Origin: a virus | Taxonomy: Duplodnaviria; Caudoviricetes | Virus record (IMG/VR): IMGVR_UViG_3300023197_000128 | Coordinates: 1 to 30,763 of that record | DNA: 30,763 nt | Reading direction: 5' to 3' (one strand) | Shown here: piece after piece, positions 4,494 to 20,668 of the stretch | Position numbering within the stretch: the first letter of the stretch is position 1 | Layout of the letters: every line of letters starts with the position of its first letter | The notes under the pieces: generated by a model | Told to the model about the DNA's origin: nothing | Seen by the model: only the letters and a program-made list of their open reading frames with translations | The model's database searches: none | Position numbers and translations under genes: made by a program

Positions 4494-4664
4494 ATGGCAA
4501 CGACACAACCGACGAACCCGATCGACGTCATCGAGCAGCACGAAGAGGTATTTAAGACGATTCACGAGAAGGCAGACGACCCCACCGTCGCCGAGCGCTT
4601 CGGCGGCCAGCCGCTCGAACTCCTGGAGCTCGATCGCGACCGCAGCCGAGGTGATCAGCCTTGA
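4494..4664 (+). CDS. Hypothetical protein (56 aa)
   Basis: MATTQPTNPIDVIEQHEEVF...; SD GGAGG; converges on and overlaps the integrase stop by 10 nt. Not in the ORF track. Confidence 0.6.
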   Translation: MATTQPTNPIDVIEQHEEVFKTIHEKADDPTVAERFGGQPLELLELDRDRSRGDQP

Positions 4665-5944
4665 AGCTGGTCGTGGAGCTGCTCGACGTCGACGTCGTCA
4701 CCGACGACGTTGTTGAGCGCGGGGTACTCCTCGAGGATCTTCCCGAGCTCGACGAGCGCGCTGGCCGCGTCGCCGTCCTCGGTCTGGATAGCGTCGAGGA
4801 GTTCCATCGTCTGGTTCTTCTTCTGCCGGACGGAGTCGTGCGAGAGCGGCTGGCCGCACCACATGCAGTCAGCGCGCTCGCGCGGCGTCTCCTTCTGGCA
4901 CCGCGGGCAGTCGATCGGCGCGGTCGGCTCGGGGTCGTCCTCCTGGACGTCCATTCCGTGAGCCTTCGCGACGGCGCGGTCGTTCGCGTCGCCGAAGACG
5001 GCGACGTAGTGGGAGGCGACGTCGCTCCCACGCTCCCAGCCGTGGTGGTCCTCGAGGTGGGCCTGGCTGACGTTCTGGCTCGCGAGGAAGGAGGCGCTGC
5101 TCTTGCGCATCCGGCGCCACGTGATGTCGGTGTGGTCGATGCCGGCCTTCCGCGCGGGCTTCTTCATCATCTTCTGCTTCATCTTGTAGGAGACGTCGCG
5201 ACCACCGTCGAGGTCGCACCAGAGCGGCGCCGTCGGGTCGTCGCCCTTCGGGTGGTCGGAGAGCCATCGGTTCAGGTACGGGACGCTGGTGATCAGCGTG
5301 GGCGAGCGCTGGCCGGTCTTCCCGTCGACGGAGACTTGGAGGCCGTACTTGTGGTCGGTGACGTCACCGACGCGGAGTTCGCGCATCTCACCGCTGCGGG
5401 CGCCGAGGTCCCACGAGACGGCGACCATGGCCTCGTCGCGCGAGTAGCGGCACTTCTGGAGAATCGGGTCGATGTGGTCGTCCCACCAGAGCATCTTCGC
5501 CGGGTCGGGGCGGGGCTTGAAGCTCCGCGGGAGGGTCGTCTTGATCTCGCGCTTCATCACGGGCGGGGTGACGTCCTCCTTCTCGCGCTGCTCGACGGCG
5601 AGCTCGTGACCGAGGGTGCGCTTCCCGAAGATGCGGACCGCGACCCGGTAGTCTTGGTTCGTGTAGGGAGTTTCGTCGATGTCGTACTCGTCGTGGATCC
5701 AGTCGACGAGGTCCTGACAGGCGTCGGCGTCCGTGCGCGCGTCGACAAGGTCGACGGGTGCCTTCTCGCTCGCGATCGTCGCGTGCCGGAGGAGCTTCAG
5801 GTGGCGGTGCCAGGTGTACTCCTCGCGCATCCGCTTGAGTCGGTCGGAGAACTCGAGCAGCGCGTCTCGGTCGCGGTCGCTGCCGCCGCGTTCGCCGGCT
5901 TTGAGCTGCTCGCGGAGTCGGTTAGTGTGAGCTTTCTCGGCCAT
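4655..5944 (-). CDS. int: Tyrosine integrase (SNJ2-like haloarchaeal type) with C-terminal zinc ribbon
   Basis: Catalytic motifs GARSGE (R), GKTG (K), MRKSSAS (R), HHGW and SHY (Y); C-terminal CPRC...CMWC; start taken at ATG 5944. Confidence 0.92.
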   Translation of the reverse strand: MAEKAHTNRLREQLKAGERGGSDRDRDALLEFSDRLKRMREEYTWHRHLKLLRHATIASEKAPVDLVDARTDADACQDLVDWIHDEYDIDETPYTNQDYRVAVRIFGKRTLGHELAVEQREKEDVTPPVMKREIKTTLPRSFKPRPDPAKMLWWDDHIDPILQKCRYSRDEAMVAVSWDLGARSGEMRELRVGDVTDHKYGLQVSVDGKTGQRSPTLITSVPYLNRWLSDHPKGDDPTAPLWCDLDGGRDVSYKMKQKMMKKPARKAGIDHTDITWRRMRKSSASFLASQNVSQAHLEDHHGWERGSDVASHYVAVFGDANDRAVAKAHGMDVQEDDPEPTAPIDCPRCQKETPRERADCMWCGQPLSHDSVRQKKNQTMELLDAIQTEDGDAASALVELGKILEEYPALNNVVGDDVDVEQLHDQLQG

Positions 5945-5967
5945 GTGCCGTTTATGTACTTTAACCG

Positions 5968-6030
5968 TCGGCACTTGAACCAGTGGTACAATTCCGGCCC
6001 TTGGCTTCCTACCGTTGGTTCAAATGCCGA
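5968..6030. repeat. 21-bp imperfect inverted repeat flanking the att core
   Basis: TCGGCACTTGAACCAGTGGTA (5968-5988) and TACCGTTGGTTCAAATGCCGA (6010-6030) are 18/21 complementary, with a 21-nt spacer. Confidence 0.85.
5993..6006 (+). other. Putative attP core (TCCGGCCCTTGGCT), matching the 3' end of haloarchaeal tRNA-Cys
   Basis: Lies ~50 nt upstream of int. 5985-6006 GGTACAATTCCGGCCCTTGGCT differs at 2 positions from the tRNA-Cys 3' end as I recall it (GGTTCAAATCCGGCCCTTGGCT). No tRNA 5' half is present. Confidence 0.75.
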
Positions 6031-6650: not shown

Positions 6651-6757
6651 GCCGTCGATACCCAGACGGCCACTGCCAGACGTGTGGCGAGCCGCTTCGA
6701 TTCCAGCCGTGTCTCAACTGTGCTACACTGCGGCGAAACCGAGGTGATCTGGCGTGA
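6647..6757 (+). CDS. Small CPxCG-like zinc-finger micro-protein (36 aa)
   Basis: MSRRYPDGHCQTCGEPLRFQPCLNCATLRRNRGDLA; ATGA and GTGA overlaps at both ends. Not in the ORF track. Confidence 0.65.
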   Translation: MSRRYPDGHCQTCGEPLRFQPCLNCATLRRNRGDLA

Positions 6758-9700
6758 CGCCCGGCCTCGACTGGGAGGCGATCTTCTGGGAAGCCCGCGG
6801 CTACCTCGGCCTCGACGAGGGCGCCCCCGTCCCGCGCGAGGAACTCCTCGAGCAGGCGAAGGCCAACGGCTGGAGCGAGCGCGACTTCCAGGAGGCGCTC
6901 CGTGCGACCGACCAGGTCGAGCTCGCCGGCGACGATCTCGAGGGCGATCTCCAGCTCGTCGATGACGACGTCGACGAGGACAACCTCGACGATACACCAG
7001 TAGACGGTTTATCAACTACCGACGTCGACAACGATTCGGAGCCCGATCGGGACGACGACGCCAACGTCGTCTATTCCGAGCGCGACTGGACCGACGTCGA
7101 GGACGACGTCTACCCCGAGGCGATGATCGAGCGCGACGCCTGGATCCCGTGGACCTCCATCGACGGCCGGAAACAGCCGTACGCCCCCTACGCGCAGACT
7201 GAAAACGCCTACTCGTGGTCAGACGTCGACAACTGGACCGACTTCGAGAGCGCCCGCGACTGGGCTGAAAAGCATCCCCAGCTTAAGGGCGTCACTTACA
7301 TCCTCCAGGAGGAGGGCGGCAGCTACGCCGACTTCGGCGACCCGTTCCTCTTCGTCGACGGTGACGACGTCCGCGACCCCGAGACCGGCGACGTCGCCCC
7401 GGCGTTCGTCGAGCTGCTCGAGCAGCTTGGCGCGACGTACACGGACATCTCGACGTCGGGAACCGGTGTCCACGCGCTCTACCGTGGCGAACTTCCCGAG
7501 GGCGTCCGCACCGTCCAGTACGAGCTCCCCGACGACCAGGGCGAGGTCGAGATCTACGACCAGCGCCGCGTCTGCGTGATGACCGGCCAGCACGTCGCCG
7601 GGACGCCTACGATGATCGACGCTGTCGACGAGGCCGGCCTCGAGGACGTGATCGACGAGCACGCCACGCGCCGGTCGACGAACGTCGATCGCGAGGACTG
7701 GGAACCCGACTTCGACCGCGACGACCTCGACGGGATGGACTCGACGTCGAACATCCAGGCGATCTTCGACGCGATCCGCCAGGTCGAACCCCGGGACATC
7801 CGGCTGCGCTCGTCGAAGACCGAGGAGCGCGCCGACGGCACGCTCTCGTTCGACCCGACGTTCGACACCTCCCGCAGCGGGACCCGCCTCGGCTGGGACC
7901 CGGACATCGGTTGGATCTACCGCAAGGGCGACCGCGGCCTCGACGCCCTCCAGGTCGTCGCCCTCGAGGAGCGGATCATCAGTTCCGTCGACGACTACCC
8001 GACCGGGGAGGACTTCTGGCGCGCCGTCGAAGTGCTCCGCGATCGCGGTGCACGCATCCCCGAGTACGAGACGACGTCGTCCGGGACCGGCGCCGGCTCC
8101 ACCCAGTACGACGTCGAGATCTGCGACCCGCCGCAGCGGGCGGCCGAGACGTTCGACCGCGAGGAACGCTGGGAGGAGATCCAGGATCAGCGCCTCGAGG
8201 CCGCCCTCGAGGACGACAAGCTCCACCTCTTCGGCGACGAGGCCGGCGCCGGGAAGACGACGAACGCCGCCCTCGGCTCGCTCCAGCGCGAGCGGGCCCA
8301 CACCGTCTACTTCGACAAGCACCTGAAGGCCCGCGAGTTCGTCACCGACGACGCGATCGCCGACTTCGAGATCGACGTCTTCGACGACGCCGAGTACTTC
8401 CACCTCCGCGGCGCCGAGCAGAAGCGGAAGGGCCACTGCATGGACGCCGATCACGCCGACGAGGACTGCCCCGAGCACGGCCACACCGCCGAGTGCCCGT
8501 CGATGTGCCCGGTCTACGACCTCGACAAGGAGCACCCGACCCGGGAGGCCTACGAGGCGCTCGTCCGCGAGGTCGGTCCGAACAAGGCCCACCAGATCCT
8601 CGAGCTCCAGGACGAGACGGAGCACCCCTGGCACGAAGGCGAGTGCGCCTGGCAGGCCCAGTACTCGGCGCTCGAGACCGAGCCGTACGTCGCCGGCGTC
8701 CACCCGTACATGACCCAGAAGAGCGCTCGCGACACCGGGCTGAACATTATTGACGAGACGCCCGGCCTCGACGCCTTCGAGCGGTCGTTCTCCGTCCGCG
8801 ACCTCACGCGCATCGCGAATAGCCTCGACCGCCTCTCCGACCTGAAGCCCCGGGACGACCCAGTGAAGTACACGGCCCAGAACCTCGCGGCGTTCACGCG
8901 GGAGGTCGTCAACGTCCTCACCGACGTCGATGGGCCCGACTCCATCGAGGACCTCGAGGCGCCGCCGGTCGTCGGAAACGCCTACGAGACCCACAGTGAC
9001 GTCGCCGGCGGCTACGTCGAGCGGGAGGAACCCGAGGAAGACTGGCAGCTCGCGAACGCGCTCGCGAAGACGAAGGTCGACTTCGGCGAGACCATTCTCA
9101 CCCGGATGCAGAACGACAACTGGGAAGGGACGCCCATCTCGATCGACATCGTCCTCACCGCGGCCGCCGAGGCCGGCCTCGACCAGGAGCCCGTCATGCA
9201 GGCGGTCGCGATCCCGCCGATCCTCGAGGCCTGCCCGTGGTGCCAGTCCGAGCTCACCTACGACAACGGCGCCCACTGCTGTACCTCCGACGACTGCGAC
9301 TGGCACGAGGCCCACAACACGCTCATCCACGAGAACGCCGAGGCCGCCCGAGCGATGACCTGGGTCAAGCGTGACCCCTCCGACGCCCCAATCGGGCTGG
9401 CCTTCCGGTCGCTCCCGCTCCCCTCGGAGCTCCCCGACCCGGCGTCGACGATCGTCCTCGACGCCACGGCGAACCCCGAGAAGGTCGCGACGCTCTTCGA
9501 CATCCCCCCCGAGGACGTCGAGGTCTCGGGTGACGACCCGCTCAAGATGCCCGGCCTCCAGGTGACGCAGGTCCTCGACGGCCAGTACCACGCCGGCACG
9601 ATCGAGCAGGCGATCGACGAGGAGCGCTCGCTCGCCGACCGGATCCAGCGGACGATCGACACCGTCGGCACCGTCCACGAGAAGCCGCTGTTCATCTGCA

Positions 9701-10656
9701 AGTCGAGCCTCATCGCCGAGTTCGACTTCCCGGAGAACGCCGAGGTCCTCCACTACCACGCTACCCGCGGGCTCAACCGGAACGACTGCGACGCCGTCGT
9801 CTGCATCGGTGCCCCGCACCCGAAGCTCGAGGACCTCGAACGCGACGCCCAGCTGCTCGCGATGGGTCGCGACGACTTCGACGTCGGCGGCGCCGAGCAC
9901 TCGACCCGCGACGGCGCCGAGAACCCGCCCGTCTACCGGAAGCTCTTCTTCGAGGACGAGCACGGCCGCGGCCGAGCCGTCCCGACGAAGCGCTACACGG
10001 GCCTGGTCGGCGCGCTGTTCGAGGAGAGCCGCGAGTCCGAACTCGTTCAGGCCGTTCACCGGGTACGTCCCCTGCTGGCCGATGGAGACGACCCGAAGCA
10101 CGCCTACCTGCTGACGAACGTCCCGACGGCGCTGCCCGTCGACGAGGTCGCGACGTTCGAGGAGCTCGCCGATCCGCTCCGGGCGCTCATGCCGATTCCG
10201 GAGGGCGCGGTCGAGTTACTCGGTCACGTCGAGCGCGTCCTCGAGGGCGACGGGCCGGACGGCTTCCGTGCCGAGGCGCTCGTCGACGTCGACGCCGACG
10301 GTGCGGTCGAGATGAAGAAACGCGAGTTCCACCGGCTGGCGACCCTGTGCGGGATGGACGTCACCTACGCAACGGTATCCCGATACGTGAACGCCCTCGA
10401 GGAGGTCGGCCTCCTGGAGGGGCAGAAGTACGAACAGCACGCTGGGGTGGCCTACGCATCGGATCTTGCTACTTTCACATCGGCACTACAGGTTCTATCT
10501 GATTGTGGCAGTTTGAAAGTAGCCGCTCGCCGCCGCTTCCGGTCGATCGTGGCCGAATCGGGGTCGGCGCTGGACTGGCTGGCCTGGGCTCGCGAGGTGT
10601 TCGACCTCGAGTTCCCGGCCGCTGGTCGAGGTGCCCCCCCGGATGGCGGAGGATAG
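6754..10656 (+). CDS. Replication protein: AEP primase-polymerase fused to an SF2-like helicase with C-terminal wHTH
   Basis: AEP motifs FVDGDD, STSGTGVH and VEIYD. Helicase motifs AGAGKTT, IIDE, LDATA, RGLN and LVQAVHRVR. Cys clusters. C-terminal TYATVSRYVNALEEVGLL. Confidence 0.8.
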   Translation: MTPGLDWEAIFWEARGYLGLDEGAPVPREELLEQAKANGWSERDFQEALRATDQVELAGDDLEGDLQLVDDDVDEDNLDDTPVDGLSTTDVDNDSEPDRDDDANVVYSERDWTDVEDDVYPEAMIERDAWIPWTSIDGRKQPYAPYAQTENAYSWSDVDNWTDFESARDWAEKHPQLKGVTYILQEEGGSYADFGDPFLFVDGDDVRDPETGDVAPAFVELLEQLGATYTDISTSGTGVHALYRGELPEGVRTVQYELPDDQGEVEIYDQRRVCVMTGQHVAGTPTMIDAVDEAGLEDVIDEHATRRSTNVDREDWEPDFDRDDLDGMDSTSNIQAIFDAIRQVEPRDIRLRSSKTEERADGTLSFDPTFDTSRSGTRLGWDPDIGWIYRKGDRGLDALQVVALEERIISSVDDYPTGEDFWRAVEVLRDRGARIPEYETTSSGTGAGSTQYDVEICDPPQRAAETFDREERWEEIQDQRLEAALEDDKLHLFGDEAGAGKTTNAALGSLQRERAHTVYFDKHLKAREFVTDDAIADFEIDVFDDAEYFHLRGAEQKRKGHCMDADHADEDCPEHGHTAECPSMCPVYDLDKEHPTREAYEALVREVGPNKAHQILELQDETEHPWHEGECAWQAQYSALETEPYVAGVHPYMTQKSARDTGLNIIDETPGLDAFERSFSVRDLTRIANSLDRLSDLKPRDDPVKYTAQNLAAFTREVVNVLTDVDGPDSIEDLEAPPVVGNAYETHSDVAGGYVEREEPEEDWQLANALAKTKVDFGETILTRMQNDNWEGTPISIDIVLTAAAEAGLDQEPVMQAVAIPPILEACPWCQSELTYDNGAHCCTSDDCDWHEAHNTLIHENAEAARAMTWVKRDPSDAPIGLAFRSLPLPSELPDPASTIVLDATANPEKVATLFDIPPEDVEVSGDDPLKMPGLQVTQVLDGQYHAGTIEQAIDEERSLADRIQRTIDTVGTVHEKPLFICKSSLIAEFDFPENAEVLHYHATRGLNRNDCDAVVCIGAPHPKLEDLERDAQLLAMGRDDFDVGGAEHSTRDGAENPPVYRKLFFEDEHGRGRAVPTKRYTGLVGALFEESRESELVQAVHRVRPLLADGDDPKHAYLLTNVPTALPVDEVATFEELADPLRALMPIPEGAVELLGHVERVLEGDGPDGFRAEALVDVDADGAVEMKKREFHRLATLCGMDVTYATVSRYVNALEEVGLLEGQKYEQHAGVAYASDLATFTSALQVLSDCGSLKVAARRRFRSIVAESGSALDWLAWAREVFDLEFPAAGRGAPPDGGG
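10468..10523. repeat. Perfect 10-bp inverted repeat around an AT-enriched spacer inside the replication gene
   Basis: GCTACTTTCA (10468-10477) and TGAAAGTAGC (10514-10523); local codon usage is atypical. Confidence 0.7.
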
Positions 10657-11020: not shown

Positions 11021-11079
11021 GTATCGACGACTGGTCGCGCTCGCTTTTCAGCCGCCGATCGGCGGTGTCCTTCCCAGCC

Positions 11080-11643
11080 ATGGCTACATCATCCAGCACC
11101 CACCAAACCCACTCCCAGTCGAAACAGCCGCTCGACGACGACAAACTCGAGATCCCCGACGACCCGGATCGGGTCTTCGGAGAAGTCGTCGAGCGAAACG
11201 ACCGCGTCTGTAAGCACTGTTACCGCCGGCTCCGTCGGAAGGTAACTTTTCCTCGGGACGTCGGCCTGGACCACGGGGATCTCATGTCGTTCGTTGAGCA
11301 CGTCCTTCCGGACGGAGCGAAGTGGAACCTGCTCGATCGCAAGTACTACGAGCGCGTCGAGCTCCCCCAGCGCGTCGAGGGTGTCTACGACGACACGGGG
11401 AAGTCGCGGTACTGTACGAACTGCGGGACGGTCGACACCCACCGAACTCCCCCTACGCGGTCGAAAGAGCAGGCGTTCGAGGCCGCGGTCAACGTTTCGA
11501 CGACGCTTCACGAACTGGGCGTCGCTCACGACTGGGTGCATTTAGTCGAGCGCGTCCGGGAACTGAAAGGCCAACCGGAGACCGCCGGCAACGACTTCGA
11601 GTGTTTCCGGCGAGCGACAGCGGAAGCGATCCGGCGCGAATAG
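11080..11643 (+). CDS. Hypothetical protein with two CxxC motifs
   Basis: CKHC and CTNC; ATG at 11080. Confidence 0.7.
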   Translation: MATSSSTHQTHSQSKQPLDDDKLEIPDDPDRVFGEVVERNDRVCKHCYRRLRRKVTFPRDVGLDHGDLMSFVEHVLPDGAKWNLLDRKYYERVELPQRVEGVYDDTGKSRYCTNCGTVDTHRTPPTRSKEQAFEAAVNVSTTLHELGVAHDWVHLVERVRELKGQPETAGNDFECFRRATAEAIRRE

Positions 11644-11675
11644 CGCCGTTTCACCAGTCGACCTCGGCGATCCCG

Positions 11676-11840
11676 ATGAGTTCCAATTCTACTCAACCCC
11701 CGATCGAGGTCGCCGTCGGTGCGCCCCTGGTAGTCAGGGACCACGGCGACGAGACGGTCGTCGGGATCTACACCCGAGGCGGCTGGCGCGAACTGAAGCG
11801 GATTCGAGATCCATCTGGCCCAGGTCGTTCGAGGCCATGA
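11676..11840 (+). CDS. Small hypothetical protein (54 aa)
   Basis: MSSNSTQPPIEVAVGAPLVVRD...; its 3' end overlaps the tRNA-like element. Confidence 0.4.
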   Translation: MSSNSTQPPIEVAVGAPLVVRDHGDETVVGIYTRGGWRELKRIRDPSGPGRSRP

Positions 11841-11893
11841 ACAGCAGCGTCACACGTCGCTGCCCGTCGCCGGTTCGATTCCGGTCCTGGGCA
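11818..11893 (+). ncRNA. tRNA-like cloverleaf with an enlarged anticodon loop
   Basis: Acceptor GCCCAGG/CCTGGGC+A; D stem GTTC/GAAC; anticodon stem GCAGC/GCTGC with 10-nt loop GTCACACGTC; variable region CCGTC; T stem GCCGG/CCGGT with loop TTCGATT. Confidence 0.8.
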
Positions 11894-11917
11894 TGAAACA
11901 CATCACTGGTATCATGA

Positions 11918-12133
11918 ATGACAGTACGAAAGAAGGCCCGCTCGCTCGCAGGCCTCGCGGCGGTTATCACGCTGCTGGGCCTGATCGCGGCGGACACGAT
12001 CCATCCGCAGATCTCGTTGAGCCTCGAAGACAAAGTCATCCTCGTGAGCCTCATCTCCGCGCTACTCGGCGTGGACCTGGCTCTACGCGAACTCCCGATC
12101 AAGTTCACTCCCGGAGGGCAAGACGATGAGTGA
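11918..12133 (+). CDS. Small two-TM membrane protein (holin-like candidate)
   Basis: Basic N-terminus (RKKAR) followed by two hydrophobic segments. Confidence 0.65.
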   Translation: MTVRKKARSLAGLAAVITLLGLIAADTIHPQISLSLEDKVILVSLISALLGVDLALRELPIKFTPGGQDDE

Positions 12134-12443
12134 ACCGCCACTCGTCAACTTCCTCGGGATGATCGCCGGCGCCGTCTGGATGTCCAGCGCGCTGTACTTC
12201 CAGCTCATCCGCGAGCGTCGAGTCCACCCCGCGTTCGTCTCGGCGCTGTTCCTCATCGGCGTCGCGCTGATGATGGCCTCCTCGGCGATCGCCGTCGACG
12301 GCCGCCCCAGCTTCGTCGAGGTCCTCGCGCTCACCGCGAACGGACTCTTCATCGGACTCGGGTTCGCCGCCTGGTACGCCATCGAGAAGTACGCGACCCT
12401 CCAGGAGACGAAGAGCCTCGCCGAGGACGGCCTCGAGATCTGA
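12126..12443 (+). CDS. Three-TM membrane protein
   Basis: Three hydrophobic stretches; overlaps the previous gene. Confidence 0.7.
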   Translation: MSEPPLVNFLGMIAGAVWMSSALYFQLIRERRVHPAFVSALFLIGVALMMASSAIAVDGRPSFVEVLALTANGLFIGLGFAAWYAIEKYATLQETKSLAEDGLEI

Positions 12444-12446
12444 CCG

Positions 12447-12605
12447 ATGGACGACGAAGACGAGTACGTCTACGCTCTCGAGCTGACCGAGGACGAGGCC
12501 GAGGACCTCCTCGACGGGACGGAGATCCTCGTCGACGTCCCCGGCCAGTTCATCGAGAAGGACCCGACCATCGCGCTTCGCGTTGTCGACGACGTGGAGG
12601 ACTGA
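12447..12605 (+). CDS. Small acidic hypothetical protein (52 aa)
   Basis: MDDEDEYVYALELTEDEAEDLLDG...; fills the gap between its neighbours. Not in the ORF track. Confidence 0.65.
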   Translation: MDDEDEYVYALELTEDEAEDLLDGTEILVDVPGQFIEKDPTIALRVVDDVED

Positions 12606-12608
12606 CCG

Positions 12609-12815
12609 ATGGGATACGACTACCACTGCGACGTCCGGCTCGACGACGTCTGCGAGATCGGCGGCGACTACCCCGCCCTCGCCGGCCAGTTCCGGAAGGC
12701 AACGTGGCTCAGCGAGGAGTTCGGTGGCCGGATGCAGGAGATGGGCTACGAGCTCGGCGACACGGTCACCATCTGCCCCAGCTGCGCCGAGGAAGTCCTC
12801 CACCCGAAGGGATGA
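12609..12815 (+). CDS. Small Cys-containing (zinc-binding) protein
   Basis: C...CEI...CPSC; SD GGAGG. Confidence 0.7.
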   Translation: MGYDYHCDVRLDDVCEIGGDYPALAGQFRKATWLSEEFGGRMQEMGYELGDTVTICPSCAEEVLHPKG

Positions 12816-12819
12816 CACG

Positions 12820-13128
12820 ATGCACGGACCATCCGGCTCGTCGACGAACAGCCGCCAGCCCGCCCGCGAGGTCTTCTGGGAGCTCCACGACGCAGGGACG
12901 TACTCCTGCCCCGGCTGCGGGCGCGGTCGCGACGACGTCCAGAGCTTCCACGTCCACCACCTCGACGGTGATGCAACGAACCACTCCCGAGACAACCTCG
13001 TCGGGCTCTGCCCGACCTGCCACCTCGGAGACGAACACGACCGGCGGCTCCCCGACTCCACGACCGAGCCGCCCGGTGTCTACGGCACCGGCCCGCCGAC
13101 CGTCGGCGACACGAGTCCCGGTCCTTGA
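12820..13128 (+). CDS. HNH endonuclease (packaging-associated)
   Basis: CPGCG...HVHHLDGDATNHSRDNLVGLCPTCH; immediately upstream of the terminase genes. Confidence 0.88.
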   Translation: MHGPSGSSTNSRQPAREVFWELHDAGTYSCPGCGRGRDDVQSFHVHHLDGDATNHSRDNLVGLCPTCHLGDEHDRRLPDSTTEPPGVYGTGPPTVGDTSPGP

Positions 13129-17831: not shown

Positions 17832-18964
17832 GCGCGACACCCACTCCCGAGGACGTCGGCCCCTGGGACACCATCTCCGGGCCGTCCGACGTCGACGTAC
17901 TCGGGGAACAGCTGGCGGCCGGCGCCGAGCAGCTGGCCGACGAGCACGCCCACCCGACGAAGGCCGGGAGTCGGGACGCGCACGCCAACGACCCGTCGAA
18001 GACGACGACGATCCAGCGGAAGTACGCCCAGAAGCTCCGCGGGCGCTTCGCGAACATCCGGGCGGAGATCCGGCGAGGTGTTGCTGACCGCGACGTCCTC
18101 GGCCTCCAGGAGGACGACGACGGGGAGGGCATCTCGCTGTCGGACATCCTCGCCGGCGACGACGTCCCGACCGACGTTCGCGAGCGGTTCGTCGAGCTGC
18201 TCGCCGACCAGGAGTACGGCGCCGCGCGGGACCTCGTCGAGCAGCTGGCGTCGGACTTCGACCCGGAAGACCTCGTCACTCGAGACTTCGAGTTCGACAA
18301 ACTCGCCCGGAAGCACGAGGAGTTCATGGCCTGGCTCCGGGCCCAGCAGGAGGCGGGCGTCCTCGAGGTCATCTCCCGGGACGGCAACACGTACGTCCGG
18401 TCGGCGTACGAGCGCGGCTGGAAGAACGCGAACTCCTGGATGGAGGCCGACCAGCTCCAGTCGGACCTCGCGACGGCGCTCCAGCGCCCCGTCCACCAGG
18501 AGAAGCTCTCGCTGCTCTACGAGCGCAACTTCGAGGCGCTCCAGGGCATCACCCAGGACGTCTCCCGGGAGATCTCGCGAGAGCTCGCCGAGGGGCTGAC
18601 CGAGGGCGTCCACCCGGACGAGATGGCTCGCCGGCTGACCGACCGCGTCGACAAGATCGGTCGGACGCGGGCGACCACCCTGGCCCGGACCGAGGTGATG
18701 TACTCGCACAACGAGGCGACCATCACTACGTACGAGCGGGCGATGGGGCCCGACGTCGAGGTCCAGGTGAAGGCGGAGGTCTCCACGGCCGCGGACCAGC
18801 ACGTCTGCGACATCTGCGAGCCGTGGGAGGGCGAGACGCTCCCGCTGGACAAGGCGCGTCGCGACGGCCCGCCGTTCCATCCTCGATGCCGGTGCATCGT
18901 CCTCCCGGCGACGTCGTCGACGAGTTCGAGCGCACCTCGAGCGTCGACGTCGCCGGCGTCCTGA
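17828..18964 (+). CDS. Head morphogenesis protein (SPP1 gp7/MuF family)
   Basis: RATTLARTE, VCDIC and PPFHPRCRC signatures. Confidence 0.92.
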   Translation: MSATPTPEDVGPWDTISGPSDVDVLGEQLAAGAEQLADEHAHPTKAGSRDAHANDPSKTTTIQRKYAQKLRGRFANIRAEIRRGVADRDVLGLQEDDDGEGISLSDILAGDDVPTDVRERFVELLADQEYGAARDLVEQLASDFDPEDLVTRDFEFDKLARKHEEFMAWLRAQQEAGVLEVISRDGNTYVRSAYERGWKNANSWMEADQLQSDLATALQRPVHQEKLSLLYERNFEALQGITQDVSREISRELAEGLTEGVHPDEMARRLTDRVDKIGRTRATTLARTEVMYSHNEATITTYERAMGPDVEVQVKAEVSTAADQHVCDICEPWEGETLPLDKARRDGPPFHPRCRCIVLPATSSTSSSAPRASTSPAS

Positions 18965-18984
18965 CCGGCGCCGGACCTGCGGCC

Positions 18985-19043
18985 ACCGTCTGTTGGACCT
19001 CTTCTCGCACGAGGAGAGCCGGGTTCGAGTCCCGGAGACGGCC
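18985..19043 (+). ncRNA. D-armless tRNA-like element (acceptor plus T arm)
   Basis: Intergenic. CCGTCT/AGACGG acceptor-like stem; CTCTTCTC-GCAC-GAGGAGAG hairpin; T stem CCGGG/CCCGG with loop TTCGAGT. Confidence 0.65.
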
Positions 19044-19060: not shown

Positions 19061-20668
19061 ATGACCGACCCCCACGACGAAGAGCACGCCGAGACACTCG
19101 CGGGCGGCGTCGCCTCGATCGACGAGGACGACGAGGACCGGAAGGTCCGCATCGTTCCTCTCGGAGAGGGCGATACCACTCGCGGAGGCTCGGGTAAAGA
19201 GACGTACTGGGACCGGGAGGTCCTGAAAGACGCCGTCGACAGCGGCGCGTTCGACGGGGCGAAGCTCCTCAAGGGCCGCCCCGGCGAGGGCCACAAGGAC
19301 ATGCTCGAGCAGGCGGACCCCGACGAGATCGTCGGCTCCGCCGGCGAGTTCGAGTATGAGGACGGCGTCGGCCCGGTGTCCGAGAACGCGGAAGTTCTCG
19401 ACGACCACCTGGCCGACCTCGTCGACGCTGGCCTCGTCGAGGTCAGCCCCGACATGTGGCGCGTCCTCGGCGAGTACGACGAGGACCTCGGCGCTCACCG
19501 CGTCGACGAGATCCTCGACGTCCCGTACATCACCATCCTCGACCGCGGCGCCTCGGCTGGCGCCTCGATCGAGCCGGCCGATGACGGCGTCGAAGCGCTC
19601 GGCGGTGTCGGGCGCTGGCGGAACCGCGTCGACGAGCTGTCGGAGACGCTGGGCGTTCCGCCGGAGCAGCTGCAGGACGAGATCGACGCGTCCGACCGTG
19701 ACGTCGAGATCACCGTCGAGCAGCTCTCGCGTCTCTTCACCCTCCGGTTCCGCGCGTACGGCGAGATGTTCGGGGACGAGTTCCTCGACGAGGCGGTCGC
19801 GAACCTCGAGGCGATCGAGGGGATCTCGGCGACCCGCAGCGAGGACAACGACGACCCCGAACTGGTCGCGATCGTCGACCGCGAGGCAGTCGCCTCGCTC
19901 GACGACCTGAACGACCAGATCGTCGACGCGCTCCAGGACACTCCCTTCGAGGTCCACGATGACTACGACTGGATCGAGGACGTCGCGTGGGAGGGTCTCG
20001 CCGGGAGTTCCGGGCCCGAGGGACAGTCATCTGACGAGCGGGCGGAATCCCGTGCGGGATCCGGTACCGGAGGTTCCGGTACCAGCGGTACTTCGCAGAC
20101 CATGGAAAACGAAGACCTTCAGGAGCAGCTCGCAGAGGTCCGGACCGAGCGAGACAGTCTCGCCGACGAGAAGGACGACCTCGAAGAGCAGCTCTCCGAG
20201 AAAGAGGAAACGATCGAGAACAAGGACGAGCGGATCGAGCAGCTCGAGGAGGAGATCGACCCCCTCGTCGAGATGCTCGCCGAACTGGCGGCCGAGGACT
20301 CGCCGCTCCAGGCCGAGCAGCTGGCCGACCGCTTCGAGCCGAGCGAACTCGTCGAGACGCTGGCGCTCGACGCCGGCTGGACCGAGGACGACGACGAGGA
20401 CCCGGTCGAGATCGTCCGCGAGCAGCTCGCGGGGTCCCCGACCCCTCGCGGCGAGAGCGAGCCCGACGGTACGCCCGGCGGTGACCTCGGTGAGGAGGAG
20501 AAGCAGCACGCCGAGCAGCTGGCCGGCGAAGTGATGACGGCGTCGGACACGCTCGCCGCCGAGGGCTCGAACTACGAGTACCTCAAGCAGGAGTACGACG
20601 TCGACGCCGCCGAGTACGACAACGTCGAACAGCTCCGCGCGGCCGTCCGCGGCAACGGGGGTGACTGA
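19061..20668 (+). CDS. Prohead protease-scaffold fusion
   Basis: Lies between MuF and capsid. N-terminal domain with GH...EVSP...RGA pattern consistent with HK97/herpes-type serine proteases; GS-rich linker; coiled-coil C-terminal part from M at 20102. Confidence 0.7.
   Translation: MTDPHDEEHAETLAGGVASIDEDDEDRKVRIVPLGEGDTTRGGSGKETYWDREVLKDAVDSGAFDGAKLLKGRPGEGHKDMLEQADPDEIVGSAGEFEYEDGVGPVSENAEVLDDHLADLVDAGLVEVSPDMWRVLGEYDEDLGAHRVDEILDVPYITILDRGASAGASIEPADDGVEALGGVGRWRNRVDELSETLGVPPEQLQDEIDASDRDVEITVEQLSRLFTLRFRAYGEMFGDEFLDEAVANLEAIEGISATRSEDNDDPELVAIVDREAVASLDDLNDQIVDALQDTPFEVHDDYDWIEDVAWEGLAGSSGPEGQSSDERAESRAGSGTGGSGTSGTSQTMENEDLQEQLAEVRTERDSLADEKDDLEEQLSEKEETIENKDERIEQLEEEIDPLVEMLAELAAEDSPLQAEQLADRFEPSELVETLALDAGWTEDDDEDPVEIVREQLAGSPTPRGESEPDGTPGGDLGEEEKQHAEQLAGEVMTASDTLAAEGSNYEYLKQEYDVDAAEYDNVEQLRAAVRGNGGD

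What the first reader, a model, noticed from the sequence alone, without database searches (positions are those of the whole stretch)
11818..11893. Full tRNA cloverleaf with a non-canonical 10-nt (or 6-bp stem + 8-nt) anticodon loop
Seen: all four stems pair, with U8, a canonical TTCGATT T-loop and discriminator A. The anticodon loop is GTCACACGTC: either a Val-like GT-CAC-AC plus 3 extra nt, or an 8-nt loop. Intact stems with an aberrant loop argue for a maintained non-decoding role. Inference: an RNase P/tRNase Z processing signal ending 24 nt before the membrane-protein gene, a decoy for anticodon nucleases or synthetases, or a frameshift-suppressor-like tRNA. Its 3' end (ATTCCGGTCCTGGGC, 11878-11892) matches the att region (ATTCCGGCCCTTGGC, 5991-6005) at 13/15 positions, hinting at a tRNA-Cys origin or a secondary att site.
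Basis: partly seen in the sequence, partly recalled or inferred. Interest (0 to 1): 0.75.

Follow-up and report, generated by a model that had tools for sequence, protein, structure and literature searches.

The report
tRNA mimic before halovirus lysis genes
A tRNA-shaped RNA with no usable anticodon, likely descended from the host's cysteine tRNA, is conserved just ahead of the putative lysis genes in viruses of salt-loving archaea, and it likely marks where host tRNA-trimming enzymes cut the long late viral message, though no cut has been shown.

Summary
The cloverleaf at 11818-11893 is real and under selection. The window is a tailed halovirus related to ChaoS9, phiH1 and phiCh1. All three carry the same element 25-28 nt before a membrane-protein plus holin gene pair; only ChaoS9's is annotated, as a tRNA-Arg of unclear function. 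Across 10 distinct copies the stems covary (97% of cells paired) and the D and T loops are nearly fixed. The 'anticodon' arm is a 7-8 bp helix with a freely changing 3-4 nt cap, not a 10-nt loop, so it does not decode. It is closest to host tRNA-Cys, whose 3' end is this virus's att site, but it is not a second att. Distant relatives put other tRNA shapes (true tRNA-Phe-like, long-armed, anticodon-less) in the same slot: 15 of 28 loci within 60 nt. A second mini-element precedes the prohead protease in 12 of 13 loci. Best reading (0.6): a viral t-element, cut by host tRNase Z and RNase P to punctuate the late transcript. Cleavage is untested; two RNA-run contigs span the would-be RNase P site. 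Earlier scan notes report similar mini-elements on other viral DNA.

The parts
11818..11893 (+). tRNA-like element, site 1: 7-bp acceptor, D arm, 8-bp arm (one U.U mismatch) capped by ACAC, 5-nt variable loop, T arm, discriminator A; no encoded CCA
11894..11917 (+). 24-nt spacer that would become the leader after a tRNase Z cut; ends in the conserved TGGTA..CATGAATG context
11918..12133 (+). 71-aa membrane protein, PHROG 24914 (homologue of ChaoS9_400, PhiH1_460, PhiCh1_440)
12126..12443 (+). 105-aa putative holin, PHROG 27838; followed by HNH, terminase, portal and virion genes on the same strand
11665..11714 (+). kink-turn-like motif (CCC-GAT-GA ... GA-GG) just after the stop of the last accessory gene; motif match only
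18985..19043 (+). tRNA-like element, site 2: 6-bp acceptor with 1:72 mismatch, D-loop remnant, hairpin, full T arm; 17 nt before the putative prohead protease gene at 19061
5993..6007 (+). att core: exact match to the 3' end of haloarchaeal tRNA-Cys(GCA), beside the integrase (4655-5974, minus strand); context, not part of the element
11065..11643 (+). upstream CxxC protein gene (homologue of ChaoS9_395), last gene before the structured intergenic region

Best explanation
The element is a conserved, non-decoding tRNA mimic, likely derived from host tRNA-Cys, that likely acts as a processing signal (a viral t-element): host tRNase Z would cut after A11893 and RNase P before G11818, splitting the long late transcript just ahead of the membrane-protein, holin and packaging genes. 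Shown: the fold, its covariation, the strand (+), the closed anticodon arm, the fixed position and the interchangeability of tRNA shapes at this slot. Inferred: transcription as part of one long late RNA (from the phiH1 T(LL) map), recognition by the two enzymes, and the outcome. The outcome would be a lysis/packaging mRNA with a new 5'-monophosphate end and a 20-24 nt leader, whose stability and translation are uncoupled from the upstream accessory genes. The second element at 18985-19043 would do the same for the protease-capsid-tail block.
For: 1. Selection on shape: 10 distinct copies, mostly 68-84% identical; three close groups at 91-99%. 97.1% of 240 cells pair; 9 of 24 pairs and 33 cells change on both sides, against 11.5 in shuffles (0/500); slid controls pair 31-51%. 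RNAalifold finds the cloverleaf unaided. One-sided changes give G.U on the + strand.
2. What is kept is what the enzymes read. Acceptor, T loop and the D-loop GG are fixed while the anticodon cap varies: ARAGORN reads Val, Ala, Arg, Glu or undetermined. [quoted passage not shown]
3. Position: a T-arm plus acceptor detector fires within 60 nt of the membrane-gene start in 15 of 28 loci and within 2.5 kb in 20 of 28, and at the gp7/protease junction in 12 of 13. Background is 0.008 per kb; 9 of 11 hits in 522 kb lie at these two sites.
4. Unrelated tRNA shapes fill the slot: tRNA-Phe-like with RF00005 59-63 bits (L140, L146), long-armed (L117, L146, L147, L152), mini (L119), anticodon-less (L118).
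5. In phiH1 the late transcript T(LL) starts at 44,961 and is drawn to about 21 kb (PMC6210493 section 3.1), which spans the element at 55,043-55,118.
6. t-elements flanking a crRNA are cut by RNase P and tRNase Z in Haloferax in vivo (PMC4326828, passages).
Against: No cleavage, transcript end or small RNA is shown. Two contigs from runs listed as RNA (one only guessed to be RNA) bridge the would-be RNase P site of the phiCh1 copy by more than 31 nt on each side. They may be precursor or DNA, but they do not show a cut there. The detector found nothing in 8 of 28 loci: L135, L148 and L127 have imperfect elements by eye, L013 and L144 have too little upstream DNA, and L011, L012 and L014 show none. 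So the gene pair can do without an adjacent element. phiH1 and phiCh1 have no detector hit at their head-gene junctions. The full D arm is invariant in this subfamily, more than RNase Z needs. From recall (Hoelzle 2012, not read; title seen in a reference list), several predicted Haloferax tRNA-like elements were not cleaved in vitro. The covariation shuffle ignores relatedness, and the 15 adjacent loci amount to about 10 lineages.
Confidence: 0.6

Rival explanations
1. The element is the 3' domain of a roughly 250-350 nt structured viral RNA (kink-turn, GRYAA pentaloop hairpin, C-rich linker, tRNA-like end) that works intact, as a protein scaffold, antiterminator or stabiliser. At most tRNase Z trims its 3' end.
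For: A kink-turn-like motif lies 246-966 nt upstream of the membrane gene in 12 of 25 loci. A G-GRYAA-C hairpin lies within 2 kb upstream in 14 of 27 loci against 0.007 per kb elsewhere. The upstream region aligns among phiH1, phiCh1, L004, L005, L006 and L026. Two contigs join upstream RNA to the element's 5' half.
Against: The window lacks the pentaloop and most of the aligned upstream region yet keeps the element. L118 and L135 show neither motif. Site-2 elements have no such upstream RNA. The CCCGATGA 8-mer also occurs 4 more times on the window's + strand. Contigs cannot show ends or strand.
Confidence: 0.2
2. The element is excised, gains CCA and serves as a decoy or inhibitor for a host tRNA-binding protein (anticodon nuclease, synthetase, or RNase P/Z themselves).
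For: Full tRNA size, tRNA-Cys ancestry and a GCA remnant in 6 of 10 copies. Excision is expected if the enzymes cut.
Against: The cap is ACAC, GCAC, GCAA, UCG or UCCA, or the arm is absent. The discriminator is A or G, not the U of the host tRNA-Cys genes. A decoy would not need a fixed spacing to one start codon, nor a second copy at another gene boundary.
Confidence: 0.1
3. It is a working tRNA, either ordinary (as annotated in ChaoS9) or a +1 frameshift suppressor with a four-base anticodon.
For: ARAGORN call; RF00005 above cut-off; ChaoS9 record annotates tRNA-Arg.
Against: The arm closes to a 3-4 nt cap in all 10 copies. U33 is present in 1 of 7 and a purine at 37 in 1 of 7 GCA/ACA-type copies. 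The apparent anticodon differs between orthologues. 35.6 bits is below all 89 host tRNA matches listed (44-73 bits).
Confidence: 0.03
4. It is a secondary attachment site or another DNA-level signal.
For: 13/15 match to the att region. Dyall-Smith et al. raised att as a possibility for the ChaoS9 copy, and the HF2 tRNA-like gene is read as attP.
Against: The acceptor and T stems change on both sides across copies, which destroys DNA identity with the host gene. The exact tRNA-Cys match lies at 5993-6007 next to the integrase, 5.8 kb away. G.U pairs point to a + strand RNA.
Confidence: 0.03
5. It is a decaying tRNA-Cys pseudogene picked up by imprecise excision, or a sequencing error in the loop.
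For: 53 of 76 positions identical to a host tRNA-Cys; the virus integrates at tRNA-Cys.
Against: The same arm length is in L004 (95% identical), phiH1 and phiCh1. Compensatory changes occur in three of four stems. Unrelated tRNA shapes hold the same slot.
Confidence: 0.02

Closest known systems
Haloferax volcanii t-element (tRNA-like structure upstream of 5S rRNA; reused to release crRNAs; PMC4326828, PMC6546412, PMC3296008, passages read)
   Same: tRNA-shaped, non-decoding, T loop plus acceptor helix directly 5' of a downstream RNA in a longer precursor; same host enzymes available. T-loop motifs sit 311-595 nt upstream of tRNA-Cys in 6 of 9 host loci examined, in 5 of them next to what I recall as the 5S rRNA start.
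   Different: Viral, in front of protein genes, leaving a 20-24 nt leader rather than a mature end; keeps a full D arm and a long closed arm; cleavage untested.
ChaoS9_TRNA1, annotated tRNA-Arg(TCG) of halovirus ChaoS9 (MK310226; PMC6471424, passages read)
   Same: It is the orthologue: same position, 77% identical.
   Different: The paper calls its function unclear and says ChaoS9 is the only one of the three viruses predicted to carry a tRNA. The element is in phiH1 and phiCh1 too, under hypothetical ORFs PhiH1_455 and PhiCh1_435, and the TCG is a 3-nt cap on a 7-bp helix.
Haloarchaeal tRNA-Cys(GCA)
   Same: Best host match: top non-viral hit of the element's model in 10 of the 11 loci fetched; 53/76 identity; GCA remnant.
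   Different: Loop closed into a helix, discriminator A instead of U, different D arm.
mascRNA/menRNA of MALAT1 and NEAT1, and mitochondrial tRNA punctuation (PMC4919922, passages read)
   Same: tRNA-like structures cut by RNase P and RNase Z to set the ends of neighbouring RNAs. The site-2 element and the minis of L008 and L119 give weak RF01684 matches (28.5-28.8 bits).
   Different: Below the family cut-off of 42.5; archaeal virus; resemblance of shape only.
HF2 tRNA-like gene HrrHF2_450, read as attP (PMC8707807, passages read)
   Same: tRNA-like sequence in a halovirus genome.
   Different: That one folds poorly, matches a host tRNA 3' end exactly and lies by the integrase; this one folds well, covaries and lies at a gene-block boundary.

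Membership tests
decoding tRNA gene | four-stem cloverleaf with U8, D-loop GG and T loop | tested here: met
decoding tRNA gene | RF00005 score above the gathering cut-off | tested here: met
   35.6 vs 29 bits; host tRNAs 44-73 bits
decoding tRNA gene | 5-bp stem with 7-nt loop, U33 and purine 37 | tested here: not met
   7-8 bp arm with 3-4 nt cap in all 10 copies; window has C at 33 and 37
decoding tRNA gene | anticodon and discriminator conserved among orthologues and matched to one amino acid | tested here: not met
   Val/Ala/Arg/Glu/undetermined calls; A or G discriminator vs U in host tRNA-Cys
decoding tRNA gene | aminoacylated in vivo | not testable with these tools
   needs experiment
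haloarchaeal t-element | acceptor helix stacked on a T arm with consensus T loop, no decoding arm needed | tested here: met
haloarchaeal t-element | lies inside a longer precursor directly 5' of the RNA it matures | tested here: inconclusive
   fixed spacing and the phiH1 T(LL) map; no transcript data for this virus
haloarchaeal t-element | cut by tRNase Z after the discriminator | not testable with these tools
   only contigs were available
haloarchaeal t-element | cut by RNase P at position 1 | tested here: inconclusive
   two contigs bridge the site in the phiCh1 copy; contigs cannot show ends
attP-type tRNA fragment | exact identity to a host tRNA 3' end | tested here: not met
   12 of 15 against host tRNA-Cys; the true core at 5993-6007 matches exactly in 5 of 5 genomes
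attP-type tRNA fragment | adjacent to the integrase | tested here: not met
   5.8 kb away
+1 frameshift suppressor tRNA | open 8-nt loop with a conserved four-base anticodon after U33 (definition recalled) | tested here: not met
   loop pairs up; cap varies
intron-containing archaeal tRNA | an intron in the anticodon loop bounded by a bulge-helix-bulge (definition recalled) | tested here: not met
   by inspection of alignment A3: the arm is only a few nt longer than a normal one and its sequence varies
mascRNA-menRNA (RF01684) | score above cut-off 42.5 | tested here: not met
   28.5 bits for site 2; not listed for site 1

The most novel reading that the evidence does not exclude
Tailed haloarchaeal viruses run a tRNA-punctuation system on a late transcript of about 34 kb. 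A captured host tRNA-Cys, taken from the virus's own integration site, was turned into a cleavage mark, and with an upstream L7Ae-type kink-turn and a GRYAA pentaloop it forms a regulatory RNA that ties lysis timing and capsid output to the host's tRNA-processing enzymes. The slot shows the whole series from true tRNA to anticodon-less mini-element.
Probability: 0.25. Interest if true: 0.8.

Novelty: new variant of a known kind. Interest (0 to 1): 0.58.

Why it matters
Late-gene control in archaeal tailed viruses is almost unmapped; even the 3' end of the phiH1 late transcript is unknown. This element gives two exact, testable cut positions in classic model viruses where it has been overlooked or annotated as a tRNA or a hypothetical ORF. 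If cut, it extends t-element processing from host 5S rRNA to viral mRNA and offers a natural series showing how little of a tRNA the archaeal enzymes need. It also corrects three public annotations (ChaoS9 tRNA-Arg, PhiH1_455, PhiCh1_435). I found no paper describing it in nine full-text searches; subscription papers, including the original phiH and phiCh1 transcription work, were not searchable.

Tried and rejected
- Relaxed pattern scans were mostly noise. None of the 34 genome-contig hits lay by the gene pair. That scan also missed the phiCh1-type copy later found in G041, so it is incomplete. 5 of 51 metagenome hits were genuine. All 7 hits of the stricter viral scan lay by the gene pair.
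- L107 looked like a tandem element but is a host tRNA-Gly with a duplicated 3' end.
- Model R1 is too narrow for the other designs: 16 bits or less for L008 and L009. In 151 haloarchaeal genomes it found one true copy plus host tRNAs.
- RNA runs: over 20 kb of the phiCh1-type provirus, X1 gave 3 contigs (one on the non-coding region, two on upstream genes with 7 differences each) and X2 gave 1. The missing cover on flanking genes proves nothing, since the runs were chosen for holding part of this stretch.
- A coding explanation was rejected. ORFs from the kink-turn ATG run 3-185 codons with no shared protein. The window's 54-codon ORF 11676-11840 has GC3 0.67 against 0.93 for the terminase, no PHROG match and one weak tblastn hit (E 0.007).
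- Rfam on 13 relative loci found only tRNA and sub-threshold mascRNA matches, with no family for the upstream RNA.
- The sigma-70 promoter scan does not apply to archaea and was ignored.
- Hoelzle 2008 was not held; it is cited only through other papers.
- The ARAGORN 95-nt tRNA-Gly call at 18949-19043 overextends; the element starts at 18985.

Full report
Setting. The window is a whole 30,763-base virus record. PHROG and Pfam matches give an integrase (4655-5974, minus strand), a primase-like replication protein (6754-10656), a 71-aa membrane protein (11918-12133, PHROG 24914), a holin (12126-12443, PHROG 27838), then HNH, terminase, portal, head-morphogenesis, neck, sheath and tape-measure genes on the plus strand. 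In the phage collection the stretch 11600-12500 matched phiCh1, ChaoS9 and phiH1 best, and each alignment began exactly at window 11818. The element therefore sits at the boundary between the accessory genes and the lysis-packaging-virion block of a tailed halovirus.

Observation. ARAGORN calls tRNA-Val(cac). RF00005 scores 35.6 bits in a narrow search, above the cut-off of 29 but below all 89 host tRNA matches listed for two genomes (44-73 bits). The fold is more stable than 200 of 200 shuffles. The single-sequence optimum is not the cloverleaf, which lies 2.1 kcal/mol higher. The loop reading needs correcting: it is 6 bp, a U.U mismatch, a C-G pair and a 4-nt cap.

Relatives. Ten distinct copies were collected: the window, phiH1, phiCh1, ChaoS9 and six environmental contigs. 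All lie 24-28 nt before the same gene. They are mostly 68-84% identical, with three close groups at 91-99%. RNAalifold predicted the cloverleaf with an 8-bp arm and 4-nt loop. On that structure 97.1% of 240 cells pair, 9 of 24 pairs change on both sides (shuffles 6.7, 20/500), and 33 cells do so (shuffles 11.5, 0/500); slid controls pair 31-51%. The shuffle ignores relatedness, so these are not probabilities. The D stem is invariant and says nothing on its own. The cap reads ACAC, GCAC, GCAA, UCG or UCCA, and ARAGORN labels the copies Val, Ala, Arg, Glu or undetermined.

Origin. The sequence at 5993-6007 matches the 3' end of a tRNA-Cys(GCA) exactly in 5 of 5 haloarchaeal genomes tested, so it is the att core. 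A model of the ten copies, run over 151 genomes, ranked tRNA-Cys as the best non-viral hit in 10 of the 11 loci fetched. The window's element is 53/76 identical to one such gene; all 8 tRNA-Cys sequences outranked every other tRNA in the sample, which was not a full tRNA set. Six of ten copies keep GCA in the cap and the window has ACA. Descent from tRNA-Cys is thus likely. A second att site is not: one difference from the core turns G-C into G.U in the T stem and the other is a two-sided change in the acceptor stem.

The slot, not the sequence, is conserved. More distant loci with the same gene pair came from viral contigs and from haloarchaeal genomes. After collapsing loci identical around the gene start, 28 remained, some still close pairs. 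A fixed detector (T arm plus at least 6 of 7 acceptor pairs) fired within 60 nt of the start in 15, about 10 lineages, and at 156-1091 nt in 5 more; in L008, L136 and L137 an extra gene intervenes. It found nothing in 8: L135, L148 and L127 have imperfect elements by eye, L013 and L144 lack upstream DNA, and L011, L012 and L014 show none. Background was 0.008 per kb, and 9 of 11 hits in 522 kb of viral and proviral DNA were at the two sites described here. The designs differ: tRNA-Phe-like with 59-63 bits (L140, L146), long-armed (L117, L146, L147, L152), mini (L119), and without any anticodon arm (L118). L117, L146 and L147 carry two elements about 290 nt apart.

A second site. Window 18985-19043 is a mini-element 17 nt before the 535-aa gene annotated as putative prohead protease in ChaoS9. 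It is present in 12 of 13 loci with this gene, absent only in the most distant, L164; its hairpin varies in length and sequence while acceptor and T stems stay paired. phiH1 and phiCh1, whose head genes differ, have no detector hit there.

Mechanism. Shown: shape, strand, position, interchangeability. Inferred: function. The phiH1 record places the start of late transcript T(LL) at 44,961, and the paper draws its unmapped end at about 21 kb (PMC6210493, section 3.1 read), so the element at 55,043-55,118 would be internal to it. In Haloferax, t-elements are cut by RNase P and tRNase Z in vivo (PMC4326828, PMC4946936 and PMC6546412, passages), and tRNase Z makes the 5S rRNA 5' end at such a structure (PMC3296008, passage; Hoelzle 2008 itself not held). 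Two methanogen RNase Zs cut after the discriminator, need the acceptor stem and a mature 5' end, and tolerate loss of the D or anticodon arm (PMC7479834, passages). That fits the conservation pattern. I put 0.6 on punctuation of the late transcript. Whether cutting raises or lowers holin output cannot be told from sequence.

Against. No cut is shown. One contig from a metatranscriptome (244 nt) and one from a run only guessed to be RNA (151 nt) lie on the non-coding region of the phiCh1-type locus and bridge the would-be RNase P site, ending inside the element. Contigs show neither ends, strand nor level, so this is at most a hint of uncut or precursor RNA. It keeps alive the rival in which the element ends a longer RNA. 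That rival also has a kink-turn-like motif in 12 of 25 loci and a GRYAA pentaloop hairpin in 14 of 27. The window keeps the first motif but not the second, and the kink-turn assignment rests on my recall of the consensus.

Novelty. The ChaoS9 paper annotated its copy as tRNA-Arg, called the function unclear, suggested att or regulation, and stated that only ChaoS9 of the three viruses has a tRNA (PMC6471424, passages). The phiH1 paper has no occurrence of 'tRNA'. Passages of PMC8707807, PMC7911831, PMC8651126, PMC4284463, PMC4919922 and PMC2841640 did not describe it; supplements were not read. Nine searches found no description. Five earlier notes of this scan report acceptor-plus-T-arm elements in other haloviruses and in a Methanobrevibacter provirus; I did not check them, and my reading was recorded before I saw them. 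No look-alike stretch of this DNA was in that index. Verdict: it works like a t-element but is not shown to be one; it is not a decoding tRNA; new variant of a known kind; interest 0.58.

Noticed in passing
window 11914-12129: The membrane gene starts in a conserved ATGAATG in 21 of 25 loci. The first ATG opens another frame that in 16 of 21 has the same codon count as the membrane ORF and stops on an ATGA, in the window the holin start. It could be a translational-coupling or dual-start device, or a by-product of GC-rich codons.
   Followed up: partly
window 11665-11714; L003 2248-2300; L002 2274-2325: Kink-turn-like motif CCY-GAT-GA ... GA-GG right after the last accessory gene in 12 of 25 loci; a possible L7Ae site.
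   Followed up: partly
L003 2420, L004 2818, L006 2806, L117 1200, L140, L148, L152, L008, L127, L136: G-GRYAA-C pentaloop hairpin with 6-7 bp, varying stem, in 14 of 27 upstream regions against 0.007 per kb elsewhere; absent from the window's region. It resembles phage boxB loops (recalled).
   Followed up: partly
L003 about 2384-2470; L004, L005, L006, L026: A further element about 30-50 nt upstream of the main one, with a 7-bp outer helix, long arm and T-loop-like hairpin on a 3-bp stem, followed by a C-rich linker. The window lacks it.
   Followed up: partly
L140 2417-2490; L146 2365-2439; L147: Canonical-looking tRNA-Phe(GAA) genes at the same gene-block boundary, in L146 and L147 paired with a long-armed mimic about 290 nt downstream; the stretch between could be released as a discrete RNA.
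   Followed up: partly
L003 2252-2605 (PhiH1_455); L002 2387-2608 (PhiCh1_435): These annotated hypothetical ORFs overlap the element and are likely spurious: the ORF from the same ATG stops after 48 codons in the close relative L026.
   Followed up: partly
window 11676-11840: 54-codon ORF starting in the kink-turn bulge and ending in the element's D loop; no coding signature, no family match.
   Followed up: yes
window 12583-13128: This ORF matches two separate stretches in phiH1, L117 and L118 (about residues 6-69 and 80-181), so a small CxxC gene and the HNH gene may be fused or frameshifted here.
   Followed up: no
L170, L173, L211, L213, L216, L218: T-loop motifs 311-595 nt upstream of host tRNA-Cys, probably the host t-element before 5S rRNA (5S start recalled).
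   Followed up: no
L107 1751-1829 and following 130 nt, minus strand: Host tRNA-Gly followed by a duplicate of its 3' end and trailer, like an integration scar.
   Followed up: no
L114 5293-5362, L129, L159, L161, L146, L147, L135: TTTAT directly follows several elements; in L135, L146 and L147 it lies 29-32 nt before the first ATG, where an archaeal TATA box would be (recalled), so some lineages may also have a promoter here.
   Followed up: no
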